From Batkoa obscura (lineage: Eukaryota), in contig JASVEC010000003.1 in NCBI GenBank assembly GCA_030770535.1, positions 1,426,001 through 1,490,000 on the forward strand: a DNA stretch of 64,000 nucleotides, read 5' to 3'. Numbering within the stretch: position 1 is the stretch's first letter; every line of letters starts with the position of its first letter. The position numbers were made by a program, and so were the translations under genes. The notes under the pieces are model-generated. The model had not been told where the DNA came from and searched no databases. It worked only from the letters and a program-made list of their open reading frames with translations. Below, piece after piece: positions 1,568 to 27,320 of the stretch.

Positions 1568-1569
1568 CT

Positions 1570-1685: not shown

Positions 1686-4187
1686 ATGATCAACAATAGC
1701 CTCATACCCTATTTTGCTGACTCAAGATATCTCCTTGATAACCGTCAACAATTGACTATCACTGAATATGACATGGGTAGTAGTGATGAAGAAGAAGCTA
1801 GTGTTCTGACCCCAGAAATAGACACTGCTGCTTTAAATCAAGCTGCCCTACCTCCTCATGTTGTAAGCTCGGTCGTTACCTATGGAGCTGTTCCTATGCA
1901 CGTTCTTAATGGTGATCTCTCTGCTTGGAGACAATACCAAAGTAGTAGCTCCAGTACCCAAATTACTTTTCGTGCTCAGTACCAAACGGTACCTACCCTT
2001 TCCCACGTTCAACAATATTTAGTAGAGTTCTTGCACAACAAACTCATCCAGATGGTTGGTGAACTCAACCGTCTCTCAACTCACAATAATGAATTGTCTA
2101 CCTCTTTAAGCTCGCTTCTAGGTACGGTTAATAATCTCTCCATGGTCATCAACCAAAACAATGATGTCATCACCCCATCAAATGAATTCCATACCAGTAA
2201 GTTTAATGAATTCAACCAAAGGCTCAATGATACTGTTAGTTATGAAGTATATAGAGATTTGGCAAGAGAAGTAGGAGACTTCAAGGCTGAATTGCATCAG
2301 CTTGATACTGCCTTACATTCCGAACTCATTAAGATCTCTGACGAGATCAACCTTTCCCTCACTGAGATCAATGACCATACTGCTCAAAGGATCTCAGATA
2401 TCGACGGAAAAGTGAAAATCACTTTTGCAGAACTTAATAGATCGTTGATGACTAGATTCACCGAGTATAATCATCGTTTATCCTATGTTGAGCAATCCCC
2501 TGCGTCTGCATCAGCCAAAGATGCCAGAATCTTGGCTTTAGAACAAGATTTAGCTGCTTGTAATGTACAACTGACTCAACAAGTGACCACCATTAGCCAG
2601 CTCATCACTTCCAATAATAATTTGAAGGAACAAATTAGATTAGATAAAGAGCAGTCAGCGGCTGACTGGGAAGAAATTTCGCGTAATATACAGAGTACCA
2701 AGGAAGAGCTTATTATTCTTCAAACTAAGGTAGCTTCCAATACCAGCCAAATCAAGGCATCTTCTTGTAATTGTAGAAAGGAACGTATCGCTGTTTCAGC
2801 ACCTCACTCCAGACTCTCGACTTATAGAGATGTTCCGAGATATAATATGTATGATCTAGGTGATGGTACCACAGAATCTATTCTTGACACTGAATATCAA
2901 ATGAACCCTAAGTATCGTGGTTCTATTCACTTGGTACAACCGGATGATCAACCCAAGAAAGGAGAAAGTCCACCTCAATTACTTCCTAGAATGACCACTG
3001 CACCTACTGATGGTATTTACTCAAGAAACCCTGCTACAGGATCTAATGCTGAGCCAATAAGATCTCATGTACAACCCTATGCTGAAGTTAACCTGGACAA
3101 TCCTTTTAACAATAGTAACAAAAACAAGTTGCCATATATTGCTCCAAAAATCACTCAACATGTACCCTATGAGCAATCTTCATCTCACTACGTACAACCC
3201 GAGCGGATTCCTGTTCAAAATAACTATGGTATATCACATAATAATCATGACGCCTATTATGGCCATCCTGGACCTTCTGGTAACAATCTAAACCCGCATA
3301 GCTTCTCAACATACCCCCACAATTATCCGAGAAGCTCCCAACCCGTTAATACCAAGTTTAATTTTAGTCTCCTATTCAATCCAAATGAAATCACTGCTAC
3401 TACTTTCATCAAAGCGCTAGAAGTTCATCTTGATGCCAACAATTGGACCTACGAGTGTCGCCCTCAATGTCTCTTAGGTCAGCTTCAAACAAACGAGCTT
3501 TCCTGGTGTATGACCCTACCTGATGACTTACGCAGTAACTGGAACTCTTTTAAAAAGGCATTCATAGATCACTATGATTCCGATGTAAAAATGGAAGCAA
3601 AAAAGGCAGCCCTTTTATCTTTACGACTAGACGATGAAAGCAAACTTGAAAATTACATTGCAAACGTAAAAAATCGTGCTAATGCTTTAATTTCCTGTGG
3701 GAAGTTAAGCGTTACAGACCTCCGCCTGGCCTTCCAACGAAACCTTCCAAGTCACATCGCACGTCTTTTTCTAGACCCTCATCATAATATCACCAATATT
3801 ACTCAGATGATAGAGATTTTAGAGCTATACCTCGGAAGTCCAAAAAGCGAAGTTAAATCCAAGAAACTATACGTTAATCATATAGATAAAGAAACGGACA
3901 ACAACGAATATCTTCATTGCTTTGCCATTACACAACAGCACTACTCCAACCATCGTAAATCTCGAGTATTTACTGGATGCTGGAACTGTGGTGAACATGG
4001 ACATATTGCCGTCAATTGTATTGAACCAAAGCCAGAAAATGGTATTTTTAAATATTACTTTGAAAAAAATGTTCGCAATAGTAAACATTTTAACAAAAAT
4101 AAACAAGTTAATCACCTCAATTATAATTATAATGATGGTGACACTGAAAAGTTTGTTGACCCCAACAGCGAGTCAAAAAACTTCTAA
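1686..4187 (+). CDS. gag: Gag (833 aa) with long N-terminal coiled-coil region and CCHC zinc knuckle
   Basis: Retrotransposon capsid-like segment (W..FKKAFIDHY) and CWNCGEHGHIAVNC knuckle; lies between PBS and pol. Confidence 0.93.
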   Translation: MINNSLIPYFADSRYLLDNRQQLTITEYDMGSSDEEEASVLTPEIDTAALNQAALPPHVVSSVVTYGAVPMHVLNGDLSAWRQYQSSSSSTQITFRAQYQTVPTLSHVQQYLVEFLHNKLIQMVGELNRLSTHNNELSTSLSSLLGTVNNLSMVINQNNDVITPSNEFHTSKFNEFNQRLNDTVSYEVYRDLAREVGDFKAELHQLDTALHSELIKISDEINLSLTEINDHTAQRISDIDGKVKITFAELNRSLMTRFTEYNHRLSYVEQSPASASAKDARILALEQDLAACNVQLTQQVTTISQLITSNNNLKEQIRLDKEQSAADWEEISRNIQSTKEELIILQTKVASNTSQIKASSCNCRKERIAVSAPHSRLSTYRDVPRYNMYDLGDGTTESILDTEYQMNPKYRGSIHLVQPDDQPKKGESPPQLLPRMTTAPTDGIYSRNPATGSNAEPIRSHVQPYAEVNLDNPFNNSNKNKLPYIAPKITQHVPYEQSSSHYVQPERIPVQNNYGISHNNHDAYYGHPGPSGNNLNPHSFSTYPHNYPRSSQPVNTKFNFSLLFNPNEITATTFIKALEVHLDANNWTYECRPQCLLGQLQTNELSWCMTLPDDLRSNWNSFKKAFIDHYDSDVKMEAKKAALLSLRLDDESKLENYIANVKNRANALISCGKLSVTDLRLAFQRNLPSHIARLFLDPHHNITNITQMIEILELYLGSPKSEVKSKKLYVNHIDKETDNNEYLHCFAITQQHYSNHRKSRVFTGCWNCGEHGHIAVNCIEPKPENGIFKYYFEKNVRNSKHFNKNKQVNHLNYNYNDGDTEKFVDPNSESKNF

Positions 4188-4218
4188 GTGGGAGGGTAAA
4201 TGAGGATCCCCCTTCCAC
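4175..4218 (+). promoter_or_regulatory. -1 programmed ribosomal frameshift signal
   Basis: A_AAA_AAC heptamer in gag phase at 4175-4181; 6-nt spacer; stem GTGGGAGGG (4188-4196) / CCCTTCCAC (4210-4218); the -1 frame is open into pol. Confidence 0.85.
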
Positions 4219-7200
4219 GAAATCAAAAATTCCTCCTGATCCAGATGAAAGCACTGAATTAGACTTCGAAATTAACACGCTTTCAAAATTTGACCCCTCT
4301 ACCCTCATCCTAGCACTACCTTCCAAAATTCGTGGCAGACCCAAGAAGAAAAAGGTTCCCGTCGTTGAAATTCCTAAAGTCATTCCACGTCGAATTGATA
4401 AGTCACCTGATAACTCTATCAATGCCCCTGATTCTGCCTTGATAAATGAAATTGCTAAACCTTACATTTCACAATTATCCGATTTATCCAAACTGTCCCT
4501 TACACAAAGTGAACTAGATAATACACACCAGTGGTTAACTAATGTTACCATCCCAATTCCTCTAGACAAAATCCTAACTGGAGAATCAGACTTAGCAATT
4601 GCATTTAGAAACATCATTAGAGAATATCAGAATCCAAATAAACAGATCCTCTTAGTAAACCTCGATGCCAAAGCCAACTCCACCGATTGTACTTACATTA
4701 ATGCGTCGATTTACAAAAAAAATGTGCGTATAATATTAGATAGCGGAGCTCCCATCAATTTCATATCGAGTCGTCTGGTAAAACGATTACCCTTTAAACC
4801 GGATATAGATTGTTCGGACACCTTCGGTACAGCCGGAACCGGAACCGTCACGGCACTAGGAGCATACTCATCAATCCCTATTAAGTTTGGAAAGCTAACT
4901 TTAGCCTTTCCAGCGATAGTGTTGGAAAGCGAAGGTTACGACTTCCTCCTAGGCACCGAATTCTTTGTGAAACATGGTTGCCAATTATTGTACGATCAAA
5001 ATATCTTAAAAGTATTAGATCAATCCATTCCAATGTACTACAATAAGCCAAGGAACCTAACCATTAACAACATAAGCAACAAAACTCCTGACTGTCGTAT
5101 AATGAGCTATCGGACTAACAATAAATCAGTTGACGTTACTCTCTGCGGATTAGAATCTGTGATTTATCAATATCCAGATATAGCATATAAGCAGTCTGGA
5201 ATCCCCATTATTTCCCCTAAGAACTTACTAATACCGCCTAAATCACAGGTAGTACTAGACACCGAAATCTCATTATGGGTACCTAAGGAGTTCCATCTAT
5301 CTATATACAGTATAGAAAGTGTTTCAAGATTAGAACCTCTAACTATGCCCGGGATTTTAGGTAATAACATGAATGAGACTATAAAACTACTGCTTGCCAA
5401 CATTACCGAAAAAGATATCAAAATCTCTAGAGGTCAACAGGTTGGTACAATCCACGTAGAAAATAACATTGTGATTAATACTTTCAGTAAATTTGCAACA
5501 CTAGAAGAATTCCAAATTTATGAAGAAGCCCCTAATAACCAAACCCTGTTTGTTGAGAAAGACACTATTAAACATCTAAACCCAGATGAACAACTTCAAT
5601 TTTATAAATTGCTGGAAGAATATAAAGACGTCTTTGCAACTTCAGAAGAAGATATTGGCTGTGCCCGCAATACTAAACATAAAGTATATACATGTGATTC
5701 ACTACCTGTTGCAACTAAAGCATATCGTAAATCTCAGTCTGAACTTAAGGCAGAACGAGAAGAAGTCCAAAAACTTTTAAGATTAGGTTTGATTATCCCT
5801 TCAAATAGTCCATGGGCCTCTCCCCTTATGATTGTTAAGAAAAAAGATGGAACTAATAGAGTAGTTATGGACTATAGGAAACTCAACAAAATCACAAAGA
5901 AGGATGTATATCCACTACCCAGAATAGATGATGCTGTTGACCGCTTACAAGGTGCAAAATACTTTTCAGCAATGGATCTAATCTCAGGATACTGGCAGGT
6001 AGAAATGGATCCGGAAGACCAAGAGAAATGCGCTTTGATTACTTCCGAAGGACTATTTCAACCAACGAGGATGCCACAAGGCCTTTCAAACGCTCCTGCT
6101 ACACTCCAACGTCTTATGGATAATACACTAGGTGATCTTAAGCTCTCATGTGTACTAATTTACTTAGACGACTTGAATGTGTTCTCGAAGACTTTCGTGG
6201 ATCACCTAAATCACCTTAAAGCAGTATTCGAACGTCTTCGCCAAGCTAACTTAAAGTTAAAGCCAAAAAAATGCTCATTTTTCCAAACTAGTCTGGAATT
6301 TTTAGGCTACAAGGTCTCTGACAAAGGTTTAGCTCCTATTCCTAATAAATTAGATGCAGTAAAAGAGCTTTTCCCCCCAACTACGATGAGAGAAGTACAA
6401 GTATTCCTCGGACTAATGAATTACTACCGAAGATTTATAAAAGATTTTTCGAACTTAGCCACTCCACTATTCCAATTGTTAAAGAAAGAAGTCAAGTTTC
6501 AATGGAAAGAAGAACACCAACAAGCCTTTGAAGAACTTCGCGATAAGCTGCTTAACGCCCCAGTGTTGATGTTTCCAAATTTCTCAAAGCCCTTCTCCCT
6601 GCATACCGACGCTAGCCTAACGGCAGTTGGAGGTGTTTTAAGTCAACTGGATGATGACAACTGCGAGCATCCAATAGCTTATACCTCTAGAACCTTATCG
6701 AAGCATGAGAGGAATTACACTACGACAGAGAAGGAATGCCTTGCAATTATTCATGCTATAAAGGCATTTAGACCGTATATCTATGGCACTCACTTTACTG
6801 TTATTACCGACCATGTTTCCCTAAAGTGGTTATATTCAATCACTAATCCTGAAGGACGTCTAGCTAGGTGGGCTCTAAAACTACAATCGTATAGTTTTGA
6901 TATAGTATATAAGCCAGGTAAAGATCACCAAAATGCAGATGGGCTTAGTAGGTTACCCAGGATCTGTCTAGCCACCCCCATAGATGATGATTTGTACAAC
7001 CTATTGGGTAATAAAAATAAGTGGCCGCAACAACAACCTGAGCTTAAACAATGGCTTGAGAAAAATGCCCAGAATATCATTGTCAAAAGTAATGCATTGT
7101 ACAAAAAGATTAAAGGAACATATATTCCGTATATTAAGCCTTCTTCGCGGCTATCTGCATGTCAACAGTTTCACAATGTGATCTGCGGGCATTCAGCCTT

Positions 7201-8197
7201 CCAAAAAACATATGACACCATGAAAGTTTCCTGCTATTGGGAATCAATGATACCAGACTTAGAAGACTTCATAAATAATTGTGATGTTTGTAAAAGAGAA
7301 CAAAGTAGGATAAAAGTAACAGCTTACAAGTTTATTTTACCTAAACATGCATTCCACACGGTAAGTATAGATGTGATAGGCCCTCTTTGTGAAGCTTCTT
7401 CAGTAAGAGGAAATAAGTATATCGTTGTAGCTATAGACCATCTAACTAAGTGGGTTGAAGCTAGAGCAATACCAAACCAGACTTCCTTCCACATATCTAA
7501 ATTTATATATGAAGATATTATTTGTAGACATGGAAGCCCACAGGTGATACTTACCGATAATGCTGCCAATTTTGTTAATCTAGTTCTCCCAAAATTAGCC
7601 AGACTAATGGCCATAAGACATTCTACTGCAGCTCCGTATCATCCAGAAACTAATGGAATGGTTGAGAGAGTAAACGGTACACTAATACGTATACTAAGAA
7701 AACTAGCTTTTGACAAAACTAGCTGTTGGGATGAATATCTACATTCCGCTATTTTAGCATATAGATATTCAGTACACAGTATTACTAAAAAGTCTCCTTT
7801 TATTATGCTTTATGGGAGACACCCTGGGCTCCCCATATCTTTTGCCCCTTTAATCGCTAAACAAGGCGAGATAAGCCCTGACATATACTTGGCTAAACTA
7901 ACAAAAAAATTGATAGCTATCCAAGTTGAAGCCTTTAACGCATTAACAGATTCGAAGATAAAGAGGTATCAGCAAGATATGTCCAGACTTCCTAGTCTAG
8001 CCACTTTCAAGGTAGGAGATATTGTTTATTTGTATCCTTCCTACAACCAACCTAGAAAAAATAAACTGGCACTGAAATGGGACGGACCATATGAAATCAT
8101 ACATAAACACTTGTATGATAGCTATTCGATTAAACATAAAGGAACAAGCGTCATTTATAATCGAGTCCATGCCAAGTTTCTCAAATCAGCAATGTGA
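4181..8197 (+). CDS. pol: Pol polyprotein (aspartic protease, dUTPase-like, RT, RNase H, integrase), likely expressed as Gag-Pol
   Basis: ILDSGA protease; YPLPRIDD and YLDD RT; TDAS/EKECLA RNase H; HHCC plus D-D-E integrase with GPY motif; frame open from 4181, upstream of the listed TTG at 4439. Confidence 0.97.
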   Translation, partial: LLSGRVNEDPPSTKSKIPPDPDESTELDFEINTLSKFDPSTLILALPSKIRGRPKKKKVPVVEIPKVIPRRIDKSPDNSINAPDSALINEIAKPYISQLSDLSKLSLTQSELDNTHQWLTNVTIPIPLDKILTGESDLAIAFRNIIREYQNPNKQILLVNLDAKANSTDCTYINASIYKKNVRIILDSGAPINFISSRLVKRLPFKPDIDCSDTFGTAGTGTVTALGAYSSIPIKFGKLTLAFPAIVLESEGYDFLLGTEFFVKHGCQLLYDQNILKVLDQSIPMYYNKPRNLTINNISNKTPDCRIMSYRTNNKSVDVTLCGLESVIYQYPDIAYKQSGIPIISPKNLLIPPKSQVVLDTEISLWVPKEFHLSIYSIESVSRLEPLTMPGILGNNMNETIKLLLANITEKDIKISRGQQVGTIHVENNIVINTFSKFATLEEFQIYEEAPNNQTLFVEKDTIKHLNPDEQLQFYKLLEEYKDVFATSEEDIGCARNTKHKVYTCDSLPVATKAYRKSQSELKAEREEVQKLLRLGLIIPSNSPWASPLMIVKKKDGTNRVVMDYRKLNKITKKDVYPLPRIDDAVDRLQGAKYFSAMDLISGYWQVEMDPEDQEKCALITSEGLFQPTRMPQGLSNAPATLQRLMDNTLGDLKLSCVLIYLDDLNVFSKTFVDHLNHLKAVFERLRQANLKLKPKKCSFFQTSLEFLGYKVSDKGLAPIPNKLDAVKELFPPTTMREVQVFLGLMNYYRRFIKDFSNLATPLFQLLKKEVKFQWKEEHQQAFEELRDKLLNAPVLMFPNFSKPFSLHTDASLTAVGGVLSQLDDDNCEHPIAYTSRTLSKHERNYTTTEKECLAIIHAIKAFRPYIYGTHFTVITDHVSLKWLYSITNPEGRLARWALKLQSYSFDIVYKPGKDHQNADGLSRLPRICLATPIDDDLYNLLGNKNKWPQQQPELKQWLEKNAQNIIVKSNALYKKIKGTYIPYIKPSSRLSACQQFHNVICGHSAFQKTYDTMKVSCYWESMIPDLEDFINNCDVCKREQSRIKVTAYKFILPKHAFHTVSIDVIGPLCEASSVRGNKYIVVAIDHLTKWVEARAIPNQTSFHISKFIYEDIICRHGSPQVILTDNAANFVNLVLPKLARLMAIRHSTAAPYHPETNGMVERVNGTLIRILRKLAFDKTSCWDEYLHSAILAYRYSVHSITKKSPFIMLYGRHPGLPISFAPLIAKQGEISPDIYLAKLTKKLIAIQVEAFNALTDSKIKRYQQDMSRLPSLATFKVGDIVYLYPSYNQPRKNKLALKWDGPYEIIHKHLYDSYSIKHKGTSVIYNRVHAKFLKSAM

Positions 8198-8272
8198 TTC
8201 AATGAGTACAATTCGTAACTAGTCAAATTGCTCTTGGTAAGTAAATCATAAAAATTCACTACATCAAATCAT

Positions 8273-8283
8273 AGGGAGGGAAA
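8273..8283 (+). promoter_or_regulatory. Polypurine tract
   Basis: AGGGAGGGAAA immediately before the 3' LTR. Confidence 0.9.
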
Positions 8284-8751
8284 TGTGAAATATTGCTTTA
8301 TTTAGCTCTCGGATTGATTATAACGCAACAATCACTTAAGTTGCTGTGTTCTCAAGTTCAAATACAATCAAGTCAGAGTCCCTTATTTTGATTTGCTGCG
8401 AGAATTTCTAACTTCATATTGCAAGGAATAACATCCTCTCGTATTAATATCCATATTTATTGGAGTATAAAAGAGATTCTTCAATATGATAACTCCAGGT
8501 TTTTTTTTAATTGGATTACTCCCTGATAACGTATCATTAATAAAGTCACTAAGTCTTTCTGACAACATCTGATATAGATTTTATAGTAGTATCTTCCATT
8601 GTATTTGTTTTACATAATTTGTAGCTTACTACATACTATTTCTATTAAGTTAAGTCTACCTTAGTTATATAAACTAAGACCCTTCGACTCAAGGCAAGTT
8701 AATTAAGCAAGAGTAGCTTTTAACTTCGGCCACTAAGTATCAACTTTCACA
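8284..8751 (+). repeat. 3' LTR
   Basis: Copy of 1100-1567. Confidence 0.97.
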
Positions 8752-9120: not shown

Positions 9121-9582
9121 TGTGGAAGTTGGTACTCAGTGGTAGGAGTTAAAAACAGTTCTTGGTTGGTTAACTTGCCTTGAGTCGAACGGTCTTAGTT
9201 TATGTAACTAAGATAGACTTAAATGAATAGGAATAATACGTAATAAATTACGAACTATGTAAAACAAATAGAATAGACAATACTACTGTAAAATCTACCT
9301 AAGATGTTGTCAGAAGGACTTAGTGGCTTTATTAATAGTACGATATCAGGGAGTAATTCAATTAAAAAGCCTCGAGTTATCATATTGAAGAATCTCTTTT
9401 ATACTCCAATAAGTATGGATATTAAAAGGAGATAATATTGTTTGCAATATGAAGTTAGAAATTCTCGCAGCAAATCAAAACAAGGGATTCTGGTTTGATT
9501 GTGTTTGAACTTGAGAACACAACAACTTAAGTGATTGTTGTGTTATAATTAATCCGAGAGCTAAATAAAGCAATATTTCACA
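9121..9582 (-). mobile_element. Solo LTR of the same family (diverged)
   Basis: Reverse-complement match along the LTR length; ACTT flanks both sides (9117-9120, 9583-9586). Confidence 0.93.
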
Positions 9583-9838
9583 ACTTTTTCCATGATTCTC
9601 AGCAAAAAAATTAAGATCAATATTTAAACTATTATTTATTTTATAAGTTTCTTCAAGTATATGATGTAAAAACTCTTGAGATTCAAAATGATTTCCTGTA
9701 TCTACTCATATATTAATTTTTGGGAACTTTTTAAATAAAGGCTCTTTAGACATTAAATCAATTAAACAGTCTCCTGCATATGCTGAATCATGATTTAATA
9801 TTTCAGATAAATAATCAAAATAAACTTTGCCTATTATT

Positions 9839-12896: not shown

Positions 12897-14150
12897 ATAT
12901 AGATCTTAATGCTTCAATGGTTATAACAACCCTGTTAATTTTATAATAACATCTTTATCTAATCGCGTTGCTCAATAACTCCTTAATTTACTACACAGTT
13001 TATATAGCTTATTTTTATTTTAGCCATGTCTTTTTCTATTATTAGGACCACAACTTCCACTTCAACTAATGATTTCAAATACCAATGAAAATAACCTTAT
13101 AATAGTAAAGAAATATTACAAGTATATAATTTAATTATAAAATTTATCAATTATTTATAAGTGATTAATGACATAAAAATCTTATGAATAACAATATCTT
13201 AAAGCAAAGAGAAAATAAATCAATAAACAAATCAAAGCATATTCAAAAATATAAATATCTTTATTATTATTATAACAAACAAAAACAATTAAGATAATAC
13301 AAAGAGCTGGACTTTATGACATTTTTAGCTACTTGATAAAACTAACTATTCGATATATAAATTTAATGATAAATACTAATATCTAATATAAAATCATTAA
13401 AATTTTGTTTATAAACAAATTAGTTCTTTAATTTTATAGTGAAAATTTATACTATATTGAGAAAATAATTTATCTATTTGAAAACTAATAAATAGCTTAG
13501 ATAATCCATCTATAATTGACTGCCTTGTATATGATAAAAGAAATTGAACTCTAGACCATTTATTCTATATTAATGTTTTCAAAAGATTCAATACTTCAAT
13601 TTTATTATTGTTTCTATTAACATCATAAATTGAGGTTTAATTATTTTATATTTCAAATAATTTTCCGTTTTATTATTTTAACTAAATAAAATTGAATATT
13701 ATTATTCTTGTAATGATAAAAAATAACAATCAAATGTTGTGTAAAATTTGAACAACATAATGTTAAAGATAGATGGAATAGTAGCCATATGTTAGTTTAT
13801 TTTTAAAGATTATTGGTAAAAATTAATATTTTAAATAATTACTTGAACCATAATAAATATCAAATACCAATGACGTTAGTTATAACTTATTATGATTGCA
13901 ACTTACTTAATTTGGATTTATTTTATGAATTTATTTTAAGGTTCTTTGATAATCAACAGAATACTTATTTTACTGTAATCGGTTTATACCCATTACGCCT
14001 GTTGTTCACCAAACAAAATAGTAATATAGATGAAAGAATAGTAAATGAGTCAATAAACAATACGCACACTTAGAATTTCAAATATTTTGAAAAAAAATTG
14101 AAAAGTATAAATAGACTTTCGAAACTTACACTTTTCATTATTAAATTAGA

Positions 14151-14348
14151 ATGTTTAACAAAATCGTTTCTGCTTTACTTGTATCCGCTTTCGGTTTACA
14201 ACTCATCTCTGCTGCTCCAGCTACTAACCAAGTTGATGCCATTGAAGCTGCTCCAAAGGCCAGTGCTAACTGCCTAATCCTCTGTACTGAATGGAAAATG
14301 GATCCAGCTTTAGGTAGGTTCAGATGCTACAAATGGGAATGTAAATAA
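14151..14348 (+). CDS. Small secreted cysteine peptide precursor, copy 1 (65 aa)
   Basis: Signal peptide, Ala/Pro/acidic pro-segment, C-x3-C-x13-C-x4-C core; TATAAATA at 14106; paralogs nearby. Confidence 0.9.
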   Translation: MFNKIVSALLVSAFGLQLISAAPATNQVDAIEAAPKASANCLILCTEWKMDPALGRFRCYKWECK

Positions 14349-14475
14349 ATCAACAGTCATTTGATGTTTTATTAAATAAAAGTAAAATTTTAATGTATTT
14401 ATTACCTTTAAAGGTTTGTTTATATTTCTATATAAATAATTAAATGTTGACTTCAAATGTATGGTTTTCATCAAT

Positions 14476-14574
14476 AGGGGATGTTTTTTTTTGGTTTCAT
14501 CACTTTTTACATTTTTAAGTGATGTTGAATGGAAAAAATGATAGCAGATTTCTTAAACAAAAAAATATATCTCT
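14476..14574 (+). mobile_element. MITE copy inserted in the 3' flank of peptide copy 1
   Basis: Family core; absent from the homologous site of the next repeat unit (~16870). Confidence 0.85.
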
Positions 14575-16548
14575 AAATGTTTTTATTTGAATTTCATCTA
14601 TAGCAATTTATTTTATCATTTACTCAGAAGTTCATCAACATTCAATCTTTCTTTAGTAATAAGGATATAGATACTCAAGTACAATACTTTAAAATAGAGT
14701 TTTCTTTAGTTTTTCTATTGAATTCTTTGTTAGTGCTTTCACACATCTGTTACTAAAGATGCATAGTCTAAAAGCTACACTTCTTTCCCAGAATGTGTAC
14801 ACCCCAAATGTTGATACTGAGTTTATCTATATAAAAACAAAAGGCTGGGAAAGAGAAAAATATAAGATCATATGAAATAAGATGCTATTATCAAAAGTAG
14901 TTCCATGTTGCTTTCCCAAACGTGATAAAAATAAGTTGATTATTCTTTTTAAACCAATTGTGTTTATAACTCAATACATGTTGATACAAGGAAGATTCTA
15001 AAATAGCATATTGTAAGTTATTACGGTTATACTTTATATTGTAAATGCACTATAAAAATTACTAAACTTAATTCTAAATTTTAATAATTAACATAACAAA
15101 ACGAGCATTGTAATCTTAAATCGATGTAAAGTAGTAAGATAATAGTAACACGTTAATTAAATTTATCAAAAATGTTTTTAATATTATATATATTTATGAA
15201 AATAAAAGTCATTAGATACTTAAGTTAATATCGAACTATTTAGAAATGAATGCTCAGTTATTACAATAACATCATAAAAAACTGATGAACCATAAAAATT
15301 TCAATTCTGAAGGGCCATATTTGTTTTAGTATTTATTCCTTTACTCCATCTCTGCTCTAGGATCTTTATAAAAATAGACGAAATAAAAATAAAAATAACA
15401 AAAAAGCGATGATATTCCCTAATTTTTTATTTGATTTATTTATCTTTTTTTAGCATTATGATATTATAAATTATACAAAAAGCTTATAGCTTAATAATTA
15501 TCATTCAGTTTGGGCAAATTTTAATATTTTATTTTTATTATATATAGATATTGACTATAAGCTAACCAAGATATTTATAAGCTGGGGTTATAACTCTTTA
15601 ACTATATACTCAAAGCGATTGTTATAAATAAACTAATATTATAGTGAGTTAAAGCTATATCAAAATTGATAATTAATCAAACAATGGTTCACAATTACTC
15701 AAGGTTTATTCCCAGAATCGATGACGTTAAGAATAAATTACACAGTTTTATTTACGTGAATGAAAATCTTTTTTGATGACAACTTATAGCTAATTTTTAA
15801 TTTAATAAAATGCTATGATCTATTTAGAGAGATTAAATAGTTTTTCTGGTAAAGTTTATGTTTGATATATTTGTGAGGAACAAACAATTCTAAACTGGTA
15901 TAAAAACAACTATCTAATAATGGATATTTATTTAAAAAAAGTGCACATCTGCGATAGATGTGTTTTTTGTGTTTTGGACTTTTTGAATATACTAAATGTA
16001 GCTTTTGATCTAACTTGTCGGTTATCTATGGCTGAAGACAGCTTTATTTTTATTTTAGACAAATAATTTTGTATGATTCAAGACTAAAATACTACTAATA
16101 GTAAATACAGTTGTAAATCAAGTTATTGTTTAAGAACTAAGCTTTTTATAAATGCTCTGCATAATGAATATCAAAGAACATACCTGTTATATTAGATACT
16201 TGAACCATAGGATAAATATCAATATTGACAGTTTTTAGCCATGTTTTATTTCAACTTAAGATAATAAATTATTATTTGCCAATATCACTAAGTTTTATTA
16301 ACGTACTGATTCGATTTTATATGATTCTATACAGATTAAATAAATTGTTACAATATTCATCTATTATAAAGATATTTTGTATTTTTTAAAAATTCATCGT
16401 TTGACTATGTAAAGATTTCACCATATATTGAGTAAGAATATAAATAGGCTTTAGGAATTCCACAAGATTGTTAAAGTTGACTCAAAATCCAAAGTAATCC
16501 TCTAATACCAACTATTTAGTATATTTTAACCTAATTTCTTTAGTTATA

Positions 16549-16746
16549 ATGTTTAACAAAATCGTTTCTGCTTTACTTGTATCCGCTTTCGGTTTACAAC
16601 TCATCTCTGCTGCTCCAGCTACTAACCAAGTTGATGCCATTGAAGCTGCTCCAAAGGCCAGTGCTAACTGCCTAATCCTCTGTACTGAATGGAAAATGGA
16701 TCCAGCTTTAGGTAGATTCAGATGCTACAAATGGGAATGTAAATAA
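16549..16746 (+). CDS. Small secreted cysteine peptide precursor, copy 2 (protein identical to copy 1)
   Basis: One synonymous difference from copy 1 (AGG/AGA); TATAAATA at 16439; candidate 5'UTR intron 16494-16543. Confidence 0.9.
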   Translation: MFNKIVSALLVSAFGLQLISAAPATNQVDAIEAAPKASANCLILCTEWKMDPALGRFRCYKWECK

Positions 16747-18666
16747 ATCAACAACCGTTTAATATGTCAATAAATAAAGATGTTTTTTTATATATTGATA
16801 CCTTTAAAAGTTTGTTTGTATTTATAAGTTGCATAATCAGATACCGACTTCGAAGTGTATGATTTTCTTTAACAATGAGTGCTTTAATATTTGAACTTTA
16901 TCTATATTAGCTTCTTTTATTAACGTTTAATCTTTCTATAGCAATAAAGATGTAGTTATTAACGTAATATACTTTGACACAGCAATTTCTCCAATTTTTC
17001 CATTGAATTCTTAGTAATTTTATATATCCAATACTAAAAACGCATAATACAAAAGCTATAGGTCTTTTTCAGAAGATGTACAGCCCAAAGGTTAGTACTG
17101 ATTTTATTTGCATAAAACTAAAAGCTGAGAAAAAGAAAACTTCAAGACAAAAAATAAGTGTAATCGTTAAAAATAGTTTCATCTAGATTCTGAGTATCAT
17201 AAAAATATGACAAAATAAATTGGTTATTCTTTTTAAACCAATTGTGTTTATAACTCAATACATGTTGATACAAGGAAGATTTTAAAATAGCATATTGTAA
17301 GTTATTACGGTTATACTTTATATTGCAAATGCACTATAAAAATTACTAAACTTAATTCTAAATTTTAATAATTAACATAACAAAACGAGCATTGTAATCT
17401 TAAATCGATGTAAAGTAGTAAGATAATAGTAACACGTTAATTAAATTTATCAAAAATGTTTTTAATATTATATATATTTAAAGGAAAACAAAGATCATTT
17501 AGTGATAAAGTTTTATATCGAGTTAGAAGTAAAATTTCAATTTCAATTTCAATAATAATACATAAAAATTGATTAACTATAAAAATCTCAAATTTAAAAG
17601 GCCACTTCCAGCTTAATGTTTATTCTTTACTTTATCTTCATCCAAATAGCTTCGTAAAAATAGTTGAAGTAAAAGTAATAAATGATAAAAAAGCGATGAT
17701 ATTCCTTAATTTTTTATTTGATTTGATATATTTTTCTTTTTTTAGCTTTATTTTATTATAAATCGAATAACAAGTTTAGGACTTGTTCATTGTTCACTAA
17801 CATTCATTTAAGGTAGGTTTTAATGGTTTGTTTTTGTTATATTATAATATTATCCTATAGACAAACCAAGACATATATATATTTTAGTCATGATTCTTCA
17901 ACCGTATATATTTAAAGCGATTGTTGTAAGTAAAATAATATTATATTGAGTTTAGGTCAATGTCGAAATAAGAATCAATTTAACAATGGTTCATAAATGC
18001 TTGAGGTTTATTACCAGAATTAATGACGTTACGAATAAGTTATACAACTTTACTTACTTAAATAGAAGTCATCAAAAACGACATTATATAATTAAGAATT
18101 AATTGAATAAAAAGTTTTTGACCTAACTTGTCTGTTTCATATGGTTAAAACGGATTTATTGTTATATTGAAACACATGTTTCCATATGGTTCAAGATTAA
18201 AATACTACTAATAGTAAGTATAGTATTAGATCGTTTTATGGTTTTAAAACCAAAGTAGTTTTAAATGTTCTATATAGTAAATATTAAATAATATACTTGT
18301 TACATTGTAAATTCGAACCATAGCATACATGTCAGGATCAACAGTTTAGATCCATACTTTGATTTGAACCAGGATAATGATTTTTTATTTGACAGTATTA
18401 CTAAGTTTTATTAACTAATGTATTCATCTGATTTCATATGGTTATATACAAGATAAATAAATCATTACAGTATATGTTTATTATGAAGATGTTTTATATT
18501 TCTATAATAAAACTTCATTTACCCACGTCAAACTTCTATCCTATTTTAATGAGAGTATAAATAGGCTCTATAAACTCGAAAAAGTATTAAAGTTAACTCA
18601 CAATCAAAAGTAATACTTTAATACTAATTAATTAAAATTTATACTAATTTAACCTCTTTAGCTGAA

Positions 18667-18891
18667 ATGCTTAAAAAAATCGTAAGTGCTTTACTTGTAT
18701 CCGCTTTTGGTTTACAGCTTTGTGCTGCTGCTCCAGCTGATGCTCCAGTTGGTACCCAAGTCGACATTAGTGAAAAAAGTATCTTAGCTACAGCTGATGA
18801 TATTGGTGCTAATTGTATCATCCTTTGCACTGAATGGAAGTATGACCCTGCTTTAGGTAGATTCAGATGCTACAAATTTGAATGTACATAA
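18667..18891 (+). CDS. Small secreted cysteine peptide precursor, copy 3 (74 aa)
   Basis: Same signal peptide, longer acidic pro-segment, core CIILCTEWKYDPALGRFRCYKFEC; candidate 5'UTR intron 18610-18661. Confidence 0.9.
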   Translation: MLKKIVSALLVSAFGLQLCAAAPADAPVGTQVDISEKSILATADDIGANCIILCTEWKYDPALGRFRCYKFECT

Positions 18892-19337
18892 ATTACCATC
18901 AATATCCATTTGTTAATAAACAAACCTACCGTTAATATACATTTTTTAATATATTTTTATAAATTGTAACCTACTGACTATTGTTTATTTGTTTAATGTT
19001 ACTATATAAGGATATATTTGTCTAGAGGCTTTAGTTAAAGTGTTGGCAGCTTTATTTGATTATTTAATATTGAGTCATAATGTCTTAGAGAGCTTAATTT
19101 ATACGGCTAGTGGTAGTCAGTAATTATTATAAAGCTTTGTTAAAAACAACTCTTTTGATTATAAATTATAATTTATATTAATTAAAAATAGTCTATATTT
19201 CATACGATTTGTTCGTTTTTCTGTTAACAAAAGTAAAAGTGCTAAAAAAAATTATAAGTCTATACATTATTTATACTATGTATTTACTTTTTAACGTTTG
19301 TAAAATAAAGTTATTTGAAGCAAAAGCAGTTTGATAT

Positions 19338-20028: not shown

Positions 20029-21642
20029 ATGGATCATTCAGTACCTTCAATTAATCAACTTAATGAAATATACTCAGATTTGCAAGTTCAAAGCCAAAAG
20101 TAAGTATTTGTATCATCAATTTAGTTAATAATTTAAAATACTTCTATTAGTCTTCGTTATAAAAAATTAATAAAAGAATTTCAAAAACAATTTAATGTAA
20201 CCCCTCATTTCATCTCAAGAGCACCAGGAAGAGTCAACATAATAGGTAAGCTAAAAATAATATGAAGTTAAATCATTAATAAGGCGTAAGGTGAACATAT
20301 CGATTATTGTGGGTTTGGAGTGCTACCTATGGGAATTGAAAAAGATATCTTAGGAGCTGTCTATGTAGAAGATAAAGAAGTAAGAGCTGGTGAAGAAGGA
20401 TTAGAAATCAGTAATATAAATCCAAAGTATCGCAAAGCAACTATAAAACTTTTAAGCAGACAAGAAGGACTTGTGAATGTTGATATGGAAAAACATGAAT
20501 GGTATAATTATTGTTTGGCTGGTTATAAAGGGGTATTGGAAACAAAACCAAATAATAAAGTAAGGAAAATCAAAATTATGATCGATGGAACTGTACCAGC
20601 GGGTTCAGGTTTATCTTCAAGCTCAGCTTTAGTTGTTTGCATGTCCTTAGCTACTAGTCACTCACAGAATATACCATTAAAACAAAAGGAGTTAGCAAAA
20701 TTATGTGTAAATAGTGAACGTTATGTTGGTGTTAATGGTGGTGGTATGGACCAAACTTGCTCTATTTTAGCTCGTAAAAATGCACTTTTGAATATTGAAT
20801 TTATCCCCTCTTTAAATGCTAGGTTAGTTAAATTACCCAACTTAACACCAGAATGTGTGTTTGTTATTGCCAATTCGAATATAGTAGCAGATAAACAGAA
20901 ATCAGCTAAATATCATTATAATTTGAGAGTAGTAGAAACTAGGATGGTAGCCTATTTATTAGCTAGCTATTTGAAATTAGATATTGATTTATCCGAAGCT
21001 CCCACTTTAAAAACAGTATTAGATGCCTACTATAAAAACAATTCTAATATAAGTAATTTGGATAAGTTAACACAATTTTTAAAGCTTACAAAAGAGCATA
21101 TTAACAAAGAACCTTATACTGTTGAGTCTTTTTCAGAAGATTCCAAATTGCCCTTACAAAAAGTTGAACAATTCTTCTTCACCAAGTATGATGTAGATCG
21201 TACTAAATTTGAACTTTACAAACGAGCTAATCATGTATTTTCCGAGGCTTTAAGAGTTTATCAATACTGTGAATTATGTGAAAGTTCAAGCCCTGATGTA
21301 GCTAGCAAATTAGGAAATCTCATGAATGAATCTCAAGCTTCATGCAATTTATTATTTGATTGTTCATGCCCAGAATTAAATCAATTAACTCAATTAGCCC
21401 TTCAATATGGTGCTTTGGGTTCTCGTCTTACTGGAGCTGGATGGGGTGGTGCTACTGTTTCTTTAGTTCCTGTTGAAAAAGTGGATGAGTTTATAAGAGG
21501 ATTGAGAAATTCTTATTTTAAAAGGTATACCGATGAACAATTTAATGAATTTGTCTTCCCTACTTCCCCATCTATGGGGGCTGTTCTTTTGAGTAATTTA
21601 GGACAGTTTTTAAGTTCAACGAAATTAGGTAATAAACTTTAA
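20029..21642 (+). CDS. GAL1: Galactokinase / GalNAc kinase (GHMP family), 3 exons
   Basis: Introns 20100-20150 and 20246-20290 reconstruct RAPGRVNIIGEHIDY; PAGSGLSSS, GGMDQ and GSRLTGAGWGG motifs. Confidence 0.92.
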
Positions 21643-22421
21643 ATTTAATAAAGAAAATCATACCATCATTTAGAATTACGTATTAAATTCCTCTATTTAG
21701 ATTCATAATTAAGATAAGTGGTATTGAAATTTATAGTAAATTTAAAAAAATCGTAAAAATTTTTCCGACATCTATTAGCTTCGATTATAATAATTTTAGT
21801 GTTTTATATTATTTTAAAAGCATAGAAATATTATGCAGTGGGTTTATTATTTGTTTAATTTTTATATTATTTTCTTATTCATTTATAACGGTTTTTAATG
21901 TTTTATGTCATTCTTGAACATCTTTTTATATGATAAAAAGGATTAAACTAAAGGAAGCAAGATAAGCTTCTCTAGCTTTTATATAGGACATGGATTGCAG
22001 AAAGTTTATTCAGATACTGTTTAATGATTTTTTAACTTGAATTCGGGAATGCTTTTGCATCAGTATTTTGTCCATTTATTAAAAAGTCTAAATTTTGAAA
22101 ATAATTGTACTCAAAAAAACATCTCTATTTAATTTTTAGTGTTTAGTCATTCATTCGATTAATTTAATAAAATTAAAAGTTTAAACTTGTAGTATTTTTT
22201 AATTATCATATCTTTTATATTTTAAAGCTTATATTGGATGCTATATAATGAATTCATGACCTTATTTTTATCATTATAAAACAATTATAGATGCTTAAAA
22301 ATAACATACACAATTTCTTTGTTTCTTTCGCTTTTTTAGAATCCTAGAATTAAACTACCTTGTTGTCTTGATACAAAAGATCAAATTATTTTATAAAATT
22401 TCTCTTTAACATACAAATAAG

Positions 22422-23869
22422 ATGCTTAAATTGGGAGATTTACCAGATTTTATTTTATTACAAATATTTAATTTAGTTGATCCAGATGATTTATTTGATC
22501 TTTGTTTTTTGAATAAATTTCTTCGTAGCCGTATTTACTATATGGGGATGTATTTTTGTGTTTAAGAATTATACTAACGATTTTTCCGCTCAAATAGCGC
22601 TTAAAAGAGAAAAAATAATGAAACCAAAAAAGACACCCCCATATAATATATAACAACCTATGCAATTCCGTTTACTTTGATCACAATTACCGCGAACTTC
22701 AAAATAATTTCACAACTATGAATGGGGATAAAATAAGACATTTAATCATGAATAGCAGTGATAATTATCATTATTTAGAGCTATGTTCAAATATTACTAG
22801 TTTATCTATAGGCTTTGAGGGTGGGTTAAAAGAATCAAGTGTATTATTAGCTTCAAAATTATATCCTAGATTAAAAAAGCTTATTATATATATACTCTAT
22901 GGCGAACATGAAGAATTCATGAGTTATTTACCACAATTTAAGCAAATATTAGATGATATTGAATGTCTCAGTATCAATAATATTAGTGGTAGTACCAATG
23001 AGTTTATAAATTATCTCAATCCAAACAATCTTAAATCGTTGAGGTTACATTCAAACTATGATGCTGATTCAAGCACACTAATAAAGATAAAAGACAAACT
23101 ACTATTATTAAAACTATTAATAGTCTCGTACGATAATGATGAAATGAGTTATGGTTTTGATTATTTTACATATTATGATTCTATAAGTAAGCTCATAATT
23201 CGTTTAGATTGTTTGCTAGAGTATTTTAATAAAATGAAAGATCTGTCAACTTATAATGAGGTTTATTTGTATCCATTCAATCATGATGTTGATAAAAGCA
23301 TACTTAATAAGCTAGACAAATATAAAATTCAATGTTTAGGTTATATTAATCCAACAGTGCTTGAAATGATAGATTTAAACTTATTACCAAATTCAAAGAA
23401 AGTGAGTATTCGAGAACATGAAGAATTACATACAGTCTTAAGTTCAATTTGTTTATTGTCAACAATAAAAACTATTGAGTTTTGTTTCGTTGATCTTTAT
23501 CATGAAACAAATATGTTGATTTCTTTTAAGTATTTTGATTTAGATGAAAATGATAATAATAACAATAGTGATTATTATTATAAACAGCCACTAGCTACGA
23601 TTAATCTAATTCAATGTAAATTTGTAAAACATTTAGTGTTTGATAATTGTGGTTTGTCCTTTCAAGGTATTTTGGATGTTTTATGTTCCTTTCCTAATGT
23701 TGAAACAGTTAAACTTTGTTATATTGTTCTTAAAGGATCTGAAAAAGAATTAATATATAAAAACATTAACCCTATTTTAATTCAATTTGATAATGTTTCA
23801 TTTGGACGCAATAAAACTAATATTATTAATAGTTTAAGTAACAATTCATTAGTTACTTTAATAAAATAA
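22422..23869 (+). pseudogene. F-box/LRR-like gene interrupted by a MITE
   Basis: MLKLGDLPDFILLQIFNLV...L..LNKFLR F-box at 22422; removing 22544-22640 plus one ATAT (101 bp) joins it in frame to ORF 22718-23869. Confidence 0.85.
22544..22640 (-). mobile_element. MITE copy with perfect ATAT TSD
   Basis: ATAT|GGGGATG...CACCCCC|ATAT. Confidence 0.95.
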
Positions 23870-24149
23870 TAAGTTTTTTTAGTATTTGATTTCTTTTACT
23901 TTAAATCGTAACAATTTCATTAATGGGTTAGAAAATATAAACGATACTAATAATATGTATAATTAGTGCTATGTGGATAGTAATTGTTATATACCAAAGC
24001 TATCTTAAGCTTCATCTGCTCTAGTCAATAGAAAGTTCAATTCAATTTTTAAAGGAACATCATCTTTCAGGGTGTTAAAGAAACGTCATCATTAGTTTAA
24101 GATAAACTTTTTATCAAAATACTTTAGTTTTTAATCAATTTATATTCAA

Positions 24150-25370
24150 ATGCCCTTAAACTTTACCAGTATATCAAATAATGTATTAGAAGAAACGTTT
24201 AAGCTACTAGAACTTCCTGAGCTATTCAAGCTGAGACTTTTAAATAAGTGTTTATCTAAAGTAGGGAATTTAGCAATTCGAAGCAATTTACTTTATTCCA
24301 GATACAATGAACTTAATTATCGAAAATATCAAACGTTTCAAGCGGAATTTATAAAAGGAAATGAAGAATCAATGAAGCATATCAATATCAATACTAATAA
24401 CTATAAGCTATTATTGGGATGTTCAAATGTAGTATGAACTCATTATTTATTTTTATTAAAAAAGACATATAATTTTAAAGTTCAAATTCAAGGGGAGTTA
24501 TCTTTTATGAGAGAGCTTATAATTCAATGTTATGAATTTTTAAATAAAGTAGAAGTATTTGAAATTTAAGGTAAAAATATGATTGCTAAAGAAATCATTA
24601 AATATCTAAATCAAGAGATATTGAAGAGTTTAATTATATTCTAAAATTCAATTACAGCTTGATGATTTAAATACAATTAAAACTAAATTCACTAAGTTAA
24701 AAGTGTTGCATTTAAAATCTAATAAATTTATTAATACACCAAGAAAACCCAATCCGAAATTCAATTTTAAAGCTAATTTAGAATTAGAGATAAGTAGACG
24801 CTTTGATTCCCTTTAATATTGAAGGTTGAAAATTTAAATCAATTTGAAAGTATCAAATTACTCAATGATGATAATTGTTTATTATTATTATTATTATTGT
24901 GTTATTTCAAAATAGTAATTCAATTACATTAGATCATATATTATTAGAAGCTACCAATTTTGATCTATTAAATTGACAAGTTTAAAGCAGATTTATTTAT
25001 ATAGTTTATCCACTCAATTATTCAAAACTGCTTCCTTAACAAATATTGGAAAAAATTCAACTTAATCTTGTTAGTTTTGATTTAGGAGATGAGGAAGATA
25101 ATGAAATTAATAAAAATCCCTTAATTCCATGTAAACTTATAAAACAAGTTGCTATGAGTTTTTTCAACCCATCAATTGAACAATTCAATTCCTTTTTAGC
25201 TACTTTTCCTGATCTTCAATTATTAGCTTTTAATAATTATCTTATTTTGGATTTAAAAACAAAATTAACTGTTATCTACTTTTTTGTTAATTATTGCTCC
25301 TATTCAACATAAAGCACAATGTTAAATTATTAAAAATAATTCAATGTTAAATTGGATTGAATGTAAAAGT
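24150..25370 (+). pseudogene. Decayed F-box/LRR-like paralog
   Basis: F-box-like start (ISNNVLEETFKLLELPELFKLRLLNK); C-terminal fragment resembles 22718-23869; several stops and frameshifts. Confidence 0.75.
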
Positions 25371-26027: not shown

Positions 26028-26222
26028 TTATACGCAGCTAAATTTATAGCACCTAAATGTATCTAAAACGGGACCTTTTCTCCAATCAGGAAAAACTTGT
26101 AAACATCTAGATCTAAAATTGGAAACTTCAACAGCATCAACTGGAGTAGTGGCTGGAGCAGTAGTGCAGAGTTGGAAACTGAAAGCAGAGATAAGTAGAG
26201 CAGAAACGATTTTATTAAGCAT
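26028..26222 (-). CDS. Small secreted peptide precursor, divergent copy 4 (64 aa, Cys2->Phe)
   Basis: Same signal peptide (MLNKIVSALLISAF) and FRCYKF.C end; same 24-residue core span; candidate 5'UTR intron 26281-26228; TATA at ~26343-26336. Confidence 0.82.
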   Translation of the reverse strand: MLNKIVSALLISAFSFQLCTTAPATTPVDAVEVSNFRSRCLQVFPDWRKGPVLDTFRCYKFSCV

Positions 26223-27320
26223 CGGAACTAAAATTACGAGGTTAGTATTTAGTTGTAAGAGGGTTAATATTTAGAGGTTACCTTTTGTTAAATTAAAGAT
26301 TATTAATAATAATAAATTAATAGCTTAACGATGACTATTTATACTTATTGGATTTTGATTTTTGCCTGAAAAAGCATTTCAATTTATAAATGTAAGTATA
26401 GAAGCCAGTTTTATTCATAAATTATTCTTTAATATAGTACTATCGTGTTTTAGGAATAATGGGCGCAACAAACTTAAATAGATTCTAAATGATATGATTA
26501 TTCAGTTTATTATTAGAACTATAGGAAAAATAAAAAATAAACCCAATGAAATTTAATTACAGTTTAAAATAATGGCTTTGCTTGTTTTTTTATTAATAAA
26601 TTAACTCAGAGCTTATACCTTTATAAAACTATGTATTTATATAGTTAAAATTCTAACTATTGTAAATTATGATGAATAAGATTGGGTTTGACGCTTATTT
26701 ATGGTTCAATTAGATATTGAAAATATCGGTTTATAAAAACAATCTCATAAAAATGAACATAGCTTACATATAGATACTATTGTGTCACTTTTTGATGTAA
26801 AGTTAATTAAATTTTATATATCGTTTGATAAATACAATATCAATGAAATAATAACATTCCATTTCTATTTCGTAAAAATTCAACAAAAAGGACAAGTAAT
26901 TTAAATATGACAACAATTCAAACCACGAATCAAGAAAAATAATAAAATAATAAAATAATAAAATAATAAATAAATTTGGCTTATTTGACCTAAGAAATTC
27001 ATTTTATGAAAAAACTTTAAAGTTATACGTCCTAATTCCTACATAAAAAGTTTCGTTCAGTTTATAGTGATCAAGTTCACTTACATGAATAATTGACCAC
27101 TTTTTGATTGTATCCTTCTATTGAGCTCACTTTTAAAATACTTGCTTCTTTTGTTAGATAAAACTACCTTTGAAGCTGCTAATATTAAAATAGTACGTGA
27201 TTTATGTTTAAAGTTCTTTATATATAACACACATAATGGTTAGTTATATTAAATTTATCCGGTCTATTTTATAATCTCTAAGTAAATTAATTTTTTTAAT
27301 AATTTTCAATAATAACATAT

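What the first reader, a model, noticed from the sequence alone, without database searches (positions are those of the whole stretch)
14151..18891. Cluster of small secreted disulfide beta-hairpin peptides: candidate new effector, toxin or antimicrobial family
Seen: three tandem genes (a fourth at 26028-26222) encode a signal peptide, an Ala/Pro/acidic pro-segment and a conserved C-terminal core ANC[LI]ILCTEWK[MY]DPALGRFRCYK[WF]EC. The Cys spacing is C-x3-C-x13-C-x4-C and each gene has its own TATAAATA. The pro-segment varies in length and sequence while the core is conserved. Known: prepro-peptides with an acidic pro-piece and a two-disulfide core are typical of beta-hairpin defence and toxin peptides (protegrin, tachyplesin, gomesin classes), but those have much shorter inter-Cys loops. 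I recognise no family with this spacing. Inference: a ~27-residue mature peptide with nested C1-C4/C2-C3 bonds, net charge only about +1 to +2, and no KR Kex2 site. That points to a target-binding effector, toxin or signal rather than a membrane-lytic peptide. At 65-74 aa it is easily missed by annotation.
Basis: partly seen in the sequence, partly recalled or inferred. Interest (0 to 1): 0.88.

Follow-up and report, generated by a model that had tools for sequence, protein, structure and literature searches.

The report
Orphan fungal disulfide beta-hairpin peptide family
An insect-infecting fungus carries a small cluster of transcribed genes, with no relatives found in public databases, for tiny peptides that are likely secreted and predicted to fold into a disulfide-stapled hairpin, most likely used against competing microbes, a peptide class so far described only from animals and plants.

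Summary
The genes are real. Four single-ORF genes encode 64-74 aa prepro-peptides in a Neoconidiobolus thromboides-like fungus (neighbouring trypsin 96% identical). Genes 1 and 2 encode the same protein. Gene 3 keeps the C-x3-C-x13-C-x4-C core under purifying selection. Gene 4 has only three core cysteines. Contigs of four public runs from two studies pile up on the coding region, with non-templated poly(A) tails and a spliced leader; loose ends point to a fifth paralogue. The core folds as one beta-hairpin (pLDDT 89). No homologue was found in 1.84 billion representatives, Pfam, PDB, ESM Atlas, metagenome or prokaryote contigs, or the literature searched. The nested disulfides are not shown, and need bulges in the predicted register. 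Function is untested. Best guess (0.42) is a secreted, low-charge, non-lytic antimicrobial hairpin made in bulk. Rivals are a spore or hyphal surface coat (0.2) and a host-directed effector or toxin (0.2). A 2026 review knows natural beta-hairpin antimicrobial peptides only from animals and plants, so activity would make this the first fungal family.

The parts
14151..14348 (+). g1, 65-aa prepro-peptide: hydrophobic signal about 1-21, pro-segment about 22-38, four-Cys core 41-65; no 5' UTR intron
   Evidence: g1-specific 83-nt contig (14326-14397, 0 differences, then 11 A) in run X3
14106..14113 (+). TATA box of g1 (45 nt before ATG)
14349..14397 (+). g1 3' UTR with AATAAA and a poly(A) site at 14397
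   Evidence: poly(A) loose ends at 14381, 14393 and 14397; the genome has no A-run there
16549..16746 (+). g2, same protein as g1 (1 synonymous difference in 198 nt)
16439..16446 (+). TATA box of g2
16494..16543 (+). 50-nt GT..AG intron in the g2 5' UTR
   Evidence: an 8-nt loose end in X2 before 14143 equals g2 16483-16490, as expected for the spliced leader
18667..18891 (+). g3, 74-aa prepro-peptide with a longer, more acidic pro-segment and the same four-Cys core
   Evidence: g3 3' UTR loose ends in X1 and X3, and a 287-nt g3-type contig in X5
18556..18563 (+). TATA box of g3
18610..18661 (+). predicted 52-nt GT..AG 5' UTR intron of g3
   Evidence: sequence signals only
26028..26222 (-). 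g4, divergent 64-aa paralogue with three core Cys (second Cys replaced by Phe)
   Evidence: contigs with g4's difference counts (18 of 97, 17 of 93) at depth 6-11
26228..26281 (-). predicted 54-nt GT..AG 5' UTR intron of g4
   Evidence: sequence signals only
26336..26343 (-). TATA box of g4
14631..18924 (+). old tandem duplication of about 2.1-2.3 kb (14631-16778 against 16916-18924, 71-77% identical) that produced g2 and g3
   Evidence: self-blastn

Best explanation
These are transcribed, lineage-specific genes of a Neoconidiobolus-like insect pathogen whose products are likely secreted, trimmed to a 25-29-residue peptide predicted to fold as a disulfide-stapled beta-hairpin, and most likely used in bulk to suppress competing microbes by binding an envelope target rather than by lysing membranes. 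Shown: intact ORFs, polyadenylated and spliced transcripts, purifying selection on the core, near-identical g1/g2 coding copies. Predicted: one hairpin, strands Ile43-Asp51 and Arg56-Cys64 around a Pro-Ala-Leu-Gly turn; pro-segment of low confidence, probably disordered. Inferred: signal cleavage near residue 21; removal of the pro-segment by a monobasic cut (Lys36 in g1) and/or X-Ala/X-Pro dipeptidyl trimming, as no Kex2 site exists; a bulge in each C-x-x-W strand segment so that C41-C64 and C45-C59 form as diagonal bonds on a Cys/Trp/Phe face, with Lys49, Arg56 and Arg58 on the other face; antimicrobial role on the cuticle, cadaver or soil.
For: Transcripts: summed contig depth 1.6-4.9e5 over 14148-14393 in X1-X3 and about 3e3 in X5, against 0-0.9 over 13082-14065 in X1-X3. 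Single contigs reach 25,000, 5,702 and 3,577 against 3-8 in the spacer; poly(A) ends are non-templated. Codon bias points the same way: C-ending NNY codons 11 of 17 in g1 and 10 of 22 in g3, against 6-40% in 9 other window ORFs (p 2.5e-5 and 0.003). Core dN/dS g1-g3 is 0.127/0.90 (p 0.001). g1/g2 CDS 197 of 198 identical while flanks are 57-72%, which suggests conversion or selection for dose. Hairpin pLDDT 96/94 over the strands in the core-only model, same strands in the precursor model. Architecture (proprotein, hairpin, Cys pairs, positive charge) overlaps the beta-AMP class, which includes +1 and +2 members such as RCB-1 and non-lytic members (PMC13001179). An insect pathogen using a secreted AMP against cuticle bacteria has a precedent in BbAMP1 (PMC10883574).
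Against: No activity, target or peptide was observed. Two sequence trends of beta-AMPs are not met: Arg over Lys (2 Arg, 3 Lys in g1) and scarcity of Asp/Glu (3 in the core). Without bulges, C45 and C59 point to opposite faces, and model coordinates were not visible. g4 has an odd number of core cysteines. Contig depth is summed over paralogues and the tool warns that it cannot rank genes. The runs' growth conditions are unknown, so no induction by bacteria or host is shown. Bulk expression and conservation fit a surface coat equally well.
Confidence: 0.42

Rival explanations
1. Structural surface peptide: the amphipathic hairpin would self-assemble or cross-link on conidia or hyphae as a coat, adhesive or surfactant, doing the job of hydrophobins or repellents.
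For: Apparently very high transcript level, codon optimisation and dose-type duplication. Conserved rather than diversified core. Aromatic, low net charge. Entomophthoralean conidia carry a mucinous adhesive film of secreted proteins (PMC9026835), and the adhesive of Entomophthora is unidentified (PMC8588673).
Against: A removable acidic or Ala/Pro pro-piece is typical of bioactive peptides (recalled). The core has modest hydrophobicity (GRAVY -0.18 to 0.06). No sequence or Cys-pattern link to any coat protein family.
Confidence: 0.2
2. Host-directed effector or toxin: the hairpin would bind an insect target (immune protein, channel or receptor) during infection.
For: N. thromboides is a broad-range insect pathogen (PMC9409958). 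Small secreted proteins of zygomycetes are lineage-specific and often predicted effectors (PMC9391592). Compact disulfide scaffold with exposed aromatics; low charge; g4 is divergent.
Against: Core under purifying, not diversifying, selection and g1/g2 homogenised. Most of the genus is saprotrophic. No host-induced expression shown. No similarity to any toxin or effector family.
Confidence: 0.2
3. Protease or hydrolase inhibitor that would restrain the fungus's own secreted serine proteases or host enzymes.
For: S01A trypsins are expanded in Entomophthoromycotina (PMC9391592) and one lies in the window. Some disulfide hairpins (ranacyclins) are Bowman-Birk-type inhibitors. Stoichiometric inhibitors are made in bulk.
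Against: No Bowman-Birk-type reactive loop (compare ranacyclin T). The basic residues lie in the predicted strands, and the turn is a tight Pro-Ala-Leu-Gly.
Confidence: 0.08
4. Developmental or mating signal (conidiation, zygospore formation) or metal-binding peptide.
For: Prepro form with X-Ala/X-Pro dipeptides recalls pheromone precursors (recalled). Four Cys could bind a metal.
Against: No Kex2 sites, repeats or CAAX end. No His. Signals rarely need bulk expression. Secreted Cys are normally oxidised.
Confidence: 0.1

Closest known systems
Beta-hairpin antimicrobial peptides of animals and plants (alvinellacin, arenicin-3, HfBRI-25, tachyplesin, gomesin, protegrin, RCB-1; PMC13001179)
   Same: Made as proproteins; one predicted antiparallel hairpin of about 25 residues; four Cys; Pro/Gly turn; Trp and Ile in strands; net positive charge.
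   Different: No listed family has x3-x13-x4 spacing (nearest, counted: alvinellacin x3-x9-x3, HfBRI-25 x1-x12-x4). Charge +1 to +3 against mostly +4 to +8; acidic residues in the core; Lys at least as common as Arg in g1-g3; Cys not directly cross-strand in the predicted register; fungal origin; no sequence similarity.
Fungal CS-alpha-beta defensins (plectasin type; BbAMP1 of Beauveria bassiana)
   Same: Fungal signal + pro + Cys-rich mature peptide; BbAMP1 shows the proposed ecological role.
   Different: Six-Cys framework with CX3C and CX1C plus a helix (PMC5234102 abstract start), against four Cys, no CXC and no helix here.
Plant alpha-hairpinins (recalled)
   Same: Four Cys with an N-terminal C-x3-C and a long middle loop.
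   Different: They end in C-x3-C and are helix-loop-helix (recalled); here the last spacing is x4 and the model is all-beta.
Lineage-specific small secreted proteins of zygomycetes (PMC9391592)
   Same: Short, predicted secreted, no Pfam match, narrow distribution.
   Different: That is a size class, not a family. These peptides were not found among annotated proteins, although N. thromboides FSU 785 proteins are in the database searched.

Membership tests
beta-hairpin AMP class (PMC13001179) | single antiparallel beta-hairpin | tested here: met
   prediction only: strands 43-51 and 56-64, mean pLDDT 88.9; same strands
beta-hairpin AMP class (PMC13001179) | cyclised by at least one intramolecular disulfide | tested here: inconclusive
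   four Cys present in g1-g3, three in g4; coordinates not visible; simple register puts C45 and C59 on opposite faces
beta-hairpin AMP class (PMC13001179) | mature length 11-25 aa | tested here: inconclusive
   25 aa from first Cys to the end; the true N-terminus is unknown (27-29 aa by the inferred cuts)
beta-hairpin AMP class (PMC13001179) | net charge +1 to +8; Cys pairs at least three residues apart | tested here: met
   +2, +1, +3 for the last 27 residues; spacings 3, 13, 4
beta-hairpin AMP class (PMC13001179) | Arg enriched over Lys, Asp/Glu scarce (a trend, not a strict rule) | tested here: not met
   g1 2 Arg/3 Lys, g3 2/2, three acidic residues in each
beta-hairpin AMP class (PMC13001179) | antimicrobial or host-defence activity | not testable with these tools
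   needs synthetic or native peptide
fungal CS-alpha-beta defensins | six-Cys framework with CX3C and CX1C, helix plus sheet | tested here: not met
   four Cys, no CXC, no helix in the core; no Pfam match
alpha-hairpinins | CX3C-Xn-CX3C, helix-loop-helix (recalled) | tested here: not met
   last spacing X4; model all-beta
Kex2-processed repeat peptides and pheromone precursors | repeated cores separated by KR/RR sites (recalled) | tested here: not met
   one core per gene, no KR or RR site
Bowman-Birk-type hairpin inhibitors (ranacyclins) | disulfide-closed Thr-Lys-Ser-x-Pro-Pro reactive loop | tested here: not met
   motif of ranacyclin T absent from all four genes
secreted prepro-peptide | cleavable signal peptide | tested here: inconclusive
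   basic N-terminus and 9-residue hydropathy windows of 1.3-1.9 near the N-terminus; no SignalP-type tool was available

The most novel reading that the evidence does not exclude
The first fungal family of disulfide beta-hairpin bioactive peptides: among the most abundant products of this insect pathogen, built on a bulged CxxW...CxxW hairpin with two diagonal disulfides, and acting on microbes or the insect host through a specific target.
Probability: 0.35. Interest if true: 0.8.

Novelty: new variant of a known kind. Interest (0 to 1): 0.62.

Why it matters
A 2026 review lists only 25 natural beta-hairpin antimicrobial peptide families, all from animals and plants (PMC13001179). A fungal family with a new cysteine spacing and low charge would widen the class to a third kingdom and give a 25-residue scaffold that is easy to synthesise and test. 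It also shows that a strongly transcribed product of an entomophthoralean biocontrol fungus is missing from public proteomes; transcripts with ORFs under 100 aa can be filed as lncRNA by pipelines used on related fungi (PMC8237998). Whatever its role, it is a direct candidate for how these fungi defend a cadaver, coat their spores or act on the host.

Tried and rejected
No genome was held, so family size outside the window is unknown. Word search of 5.8 billion proteins with g1: no candidate, lengths 35-114 aa only. HMMER over 1.84 billion representatives: 2 hits at E up to 0.001; both are long tandem-repeat ORFs whose score is summed over 6-7 repeats and which lack the four-Cys core, so rejected. 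Exact look-up of 10 window proteins: 0 of 10 held. Pfam 0 families for 3 precursors and 3 cores. NCBIfam one weak SilE match, E 0.12, far below cut-off. PDB sequences 0 hits at E up to 10. ESM Atlas: one 0.78 hit and no usable hit, which shows neither novelty nor absence. Fold searches: no Foldseek match at E up to 0.001, no VIA match at Z 2 or more; uninformative for a 30-residue hairpin. Metagenome scan: 326 pattern matches, 0 confirmed. Degenerate core pattern: 21 metagenome, 4 prokaryote and 0 viral matches; 11 of 25 have a stop inside the motif and by inspection none of the other 14 lies in a signal-peptide ORF, so read as chance; no sign of bacterial origin. Homodimer prediction: no verdict, score 0.02, no evidence either way. 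Run search listed no holder on record as RNA. Earlier scan notes: nothing in 3 look-ups. Literature: 0 papers with four core motifs, 0 for Conidiobolus plus small secreted cysteine-rich peptide, nothing relevant among titles, and 0 motif hits in the supplements held for PMC8237998 and PMC9026835. Gene tables or sequence files not held, and subscription journals, could still list these genes.
Full report
Observation. The four ORFs are as stated. g1 (14151-14348) and g2 (16549-16746) encode the same 65-aa protein and differ at one synonymous base; g3 (18667-18891) is 74 aa with a longer, more acidic pro-segment; g4 (26028-26222, minus strand) is 64 aa and about 52% identical to g1. The C-x3-C-x13-C-x4-C core occurs three times in the window and never in 30 shuffles. 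g4 does not have it: its second Cys is Phe. tblastn found no further copy in the window.

Organism. The window is 27% GC. The galactokinase at 20329 has its best hits in Entomophthora and Massospora (47% and 44%). The trypsin at 61182 is 96% identical to one of Neoconidiobolus thromboides FSU 785. The source is therefore N. thromboides or a close relative. That taxon may be a species complex and is one of two broad-range insect pathogens in a mostly saprotrophic genus (PMC9409958, passages).

Gene structure and evolution. Each gene has RTATAAATAG upstream; that motif occurs 8 times in the window, the shorter TATAAATA 50 times. g2, g3 and g4 have a 50-54 nt GT..AG intron just before the ATG, and g1 has none. 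g2 and g3 arose by an old tandem duplication of about 2.2 kb (71-77% identity). g1 and g2 coding regions are 197 of 198 identical while 120-nt flanks are 57% and 72% identical; I infer gene conversion or selection for dose. Core dN/dS is 0.127/0.90 for g1-g3 and 0.435/1.80 for g1-g4 (Fisher p 0.001 and 0.04 on rounded counts). So the core is conserved at the protein level, and g4 is relaxed but not clearly dead.

Expression. Five public runs from two studies hold part of 14000-19200, none on record as RNA. Four of the five were laid on 13000-15450. Contigs pile up on 14148-14393 (summed depth 1.6-4.9e5 in X1-X3, about 3e3 in X5), with 0-0.9 over 13082-14065 in X1-X3. Loose ends at 14381, 14393 and 14397 end in A-runs that the genome lacks, and a GT..AG joint at 15012-15244 is present in X1, so these runs behave as RNA. 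An 83-nt contig matches g1's own 3' end exactly and carries poly(A). An 8-nt loose end matches the spliced g2 leader. g3's 3' UTR appears in X1 and X3. The single 287-nt X5 contig (second study, other organism label) has exactly g3's differences from g1: 4, then 89 letters between, then 13 plus 2 gaps. Contigs with g4's difference counts have depth 6-11. Two recurring loose ends and a recurring variant at 14277 are not explained by the window, which points to at least one more paralogue or a divergent allele. Depth is summed over paralogues and cannot rank genes; codon bias independently suggests high expression. Growth conditions are unknown.

Relatives. None was found: 5.8 billion proteins by shared words, 1.84 billion representatives by HMMER (2 spurious repeat hits), Pfam, NCBIfam, PDB and ESM Atlas, metagenome, prokaryote and viral contigs. 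N. thromboides proteins are in the protein collection, so the peptides are probably unannotated there, or absent from that strain. No fungal genome collection could be searched at DNA level, so absence from other fungi is not shown.

Structure. The precursor model has strands 43-51 and 56-64 with the pro-segment below pLDDT 50. The 30-residue core alone gives the same hairpin at mean pLDDT 88.9. The register pairs Asp51 with Arg56, Trp48 with Cys59 and Cys45 with Trp62. Without bulges Cys45 and Cys59 face opposite ways, so the nested pairing needs a bulge in each C-x-x-W segment. That would place both disulfides diagonally on one Cys/Trp/Phe/Ile/Met face and Lys49, Arg56, Arg58 on the other. 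This is my inference; coordinates were not returned. The D-P-x-x-G-R turn resembles the chignolin and WW-domain type of hairpin turn (recalled).

Mechanism. The most likely reading (0.42) is a secreted low-charge antimicrobial hairpin. It rests on the prepro architecture, bulk transcription, dose-type duplication, purifying selection, the class precedent for +1/+2 and non-lytic members (PMC13001179: text parts 1, 3 and 4 of 8, passages and the supplementary table) and BbAMP1 as an ecological precedent (PMC10883574, one passage). A surface coat (0.2) fits the same expression and conservation. A host effector or toxin (0.2) fits the lifestyle but less well the lack of diversification. Inhibitor (0.08) and signal or metal binder (0.1) are weaker. 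Processing is inferred: no KR site, a monobasic Lys or Arg in each pro-segment, and X-Ala/X-Pro dipeptides before the g1 core.

Comparison and novelty. It looks like a beta-hairpin AMP but cannot be filed as one: activity and disulfides are untested and two composition trends are not met. No family in the review's table has this spacing. It is not a CS-alpha-beta defensin, alpha-hairpinin, Kex2 repeat peptide or Bowman-Birk loop. The review finds natural beta-AMPs only in animals and plants. I found no description in print. Other papers seen as passages only: PMC9026835, PMC9391592, PMC12387763, PMC8237998, PMC11105155, PMC8588673, PMC9602595; PMC5234102 as abstract start.

Verdict. A real, transcribed, unannotated orphan peptide family with a confidently predicted hairpin and unknown activity. 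New variant of a known kind; interest 0.62. Orphan small secreted proteins are common in these fungi, which caps the score until activity is shown.

Noticed in passing
window 1100-8751: Full-length LTR retrotransposon (gag with zinc knuckle; RT, RNase H, integrase, weak dUTPase match) with two identical 468-nt LTRs, so a very recent insertion; further LTR-like copies at 9121-9586, 48063-48346 and 63196-63657.
   Followed up: partly
window, 16 copies from 10098 to 63185: Dispersed repeat of about 107 nt, 74-93% identical to the copy at 57910-58016; 7 of 16 lie within 400 nt of a tRNA gene, and copies appear in transcript contigs. Not tested against chance.
   Followed up: partly
window 10373-62435: Eight tRNA genes in 64 kb, five of them near-identical tRNA-Ile(AAT).
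   Followed up: no
window 14608-15373: Low-depth spliced transcript in the g1-g2 spacer (GT..AG joint 15012-15244) with no plus-strand ATG ORF of 50 aa or more in the unspliced sequence; probably non-coding or read-through. A 255-nt part (14935-15190) is 96% identical to 17222-17478 inside an otherwise 76% duplication.
   Followed up: partly
window 14106-14150: g1 lacks the 5' UTR intron that g2-g4 have, and its leader resembles the spliced g2 junction; possible cDNA-mediated intron loss. Its upstream region 13599-13853 resembles that of g4 (26699-26956, inverted, 69%).
   Followed up: partly
window 42794-52763: Three copies of a TM7S3/TMEM198-like membrane protein gene, 81-93% identical.
   Followed up: no
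window 20329-24437 and 61182-61964: Galactokinase, an LRR-like ORF and an F-box-like ORF lie between g3 and g4; a trypsin-like protease lies at 61182.
   Followed up: partly
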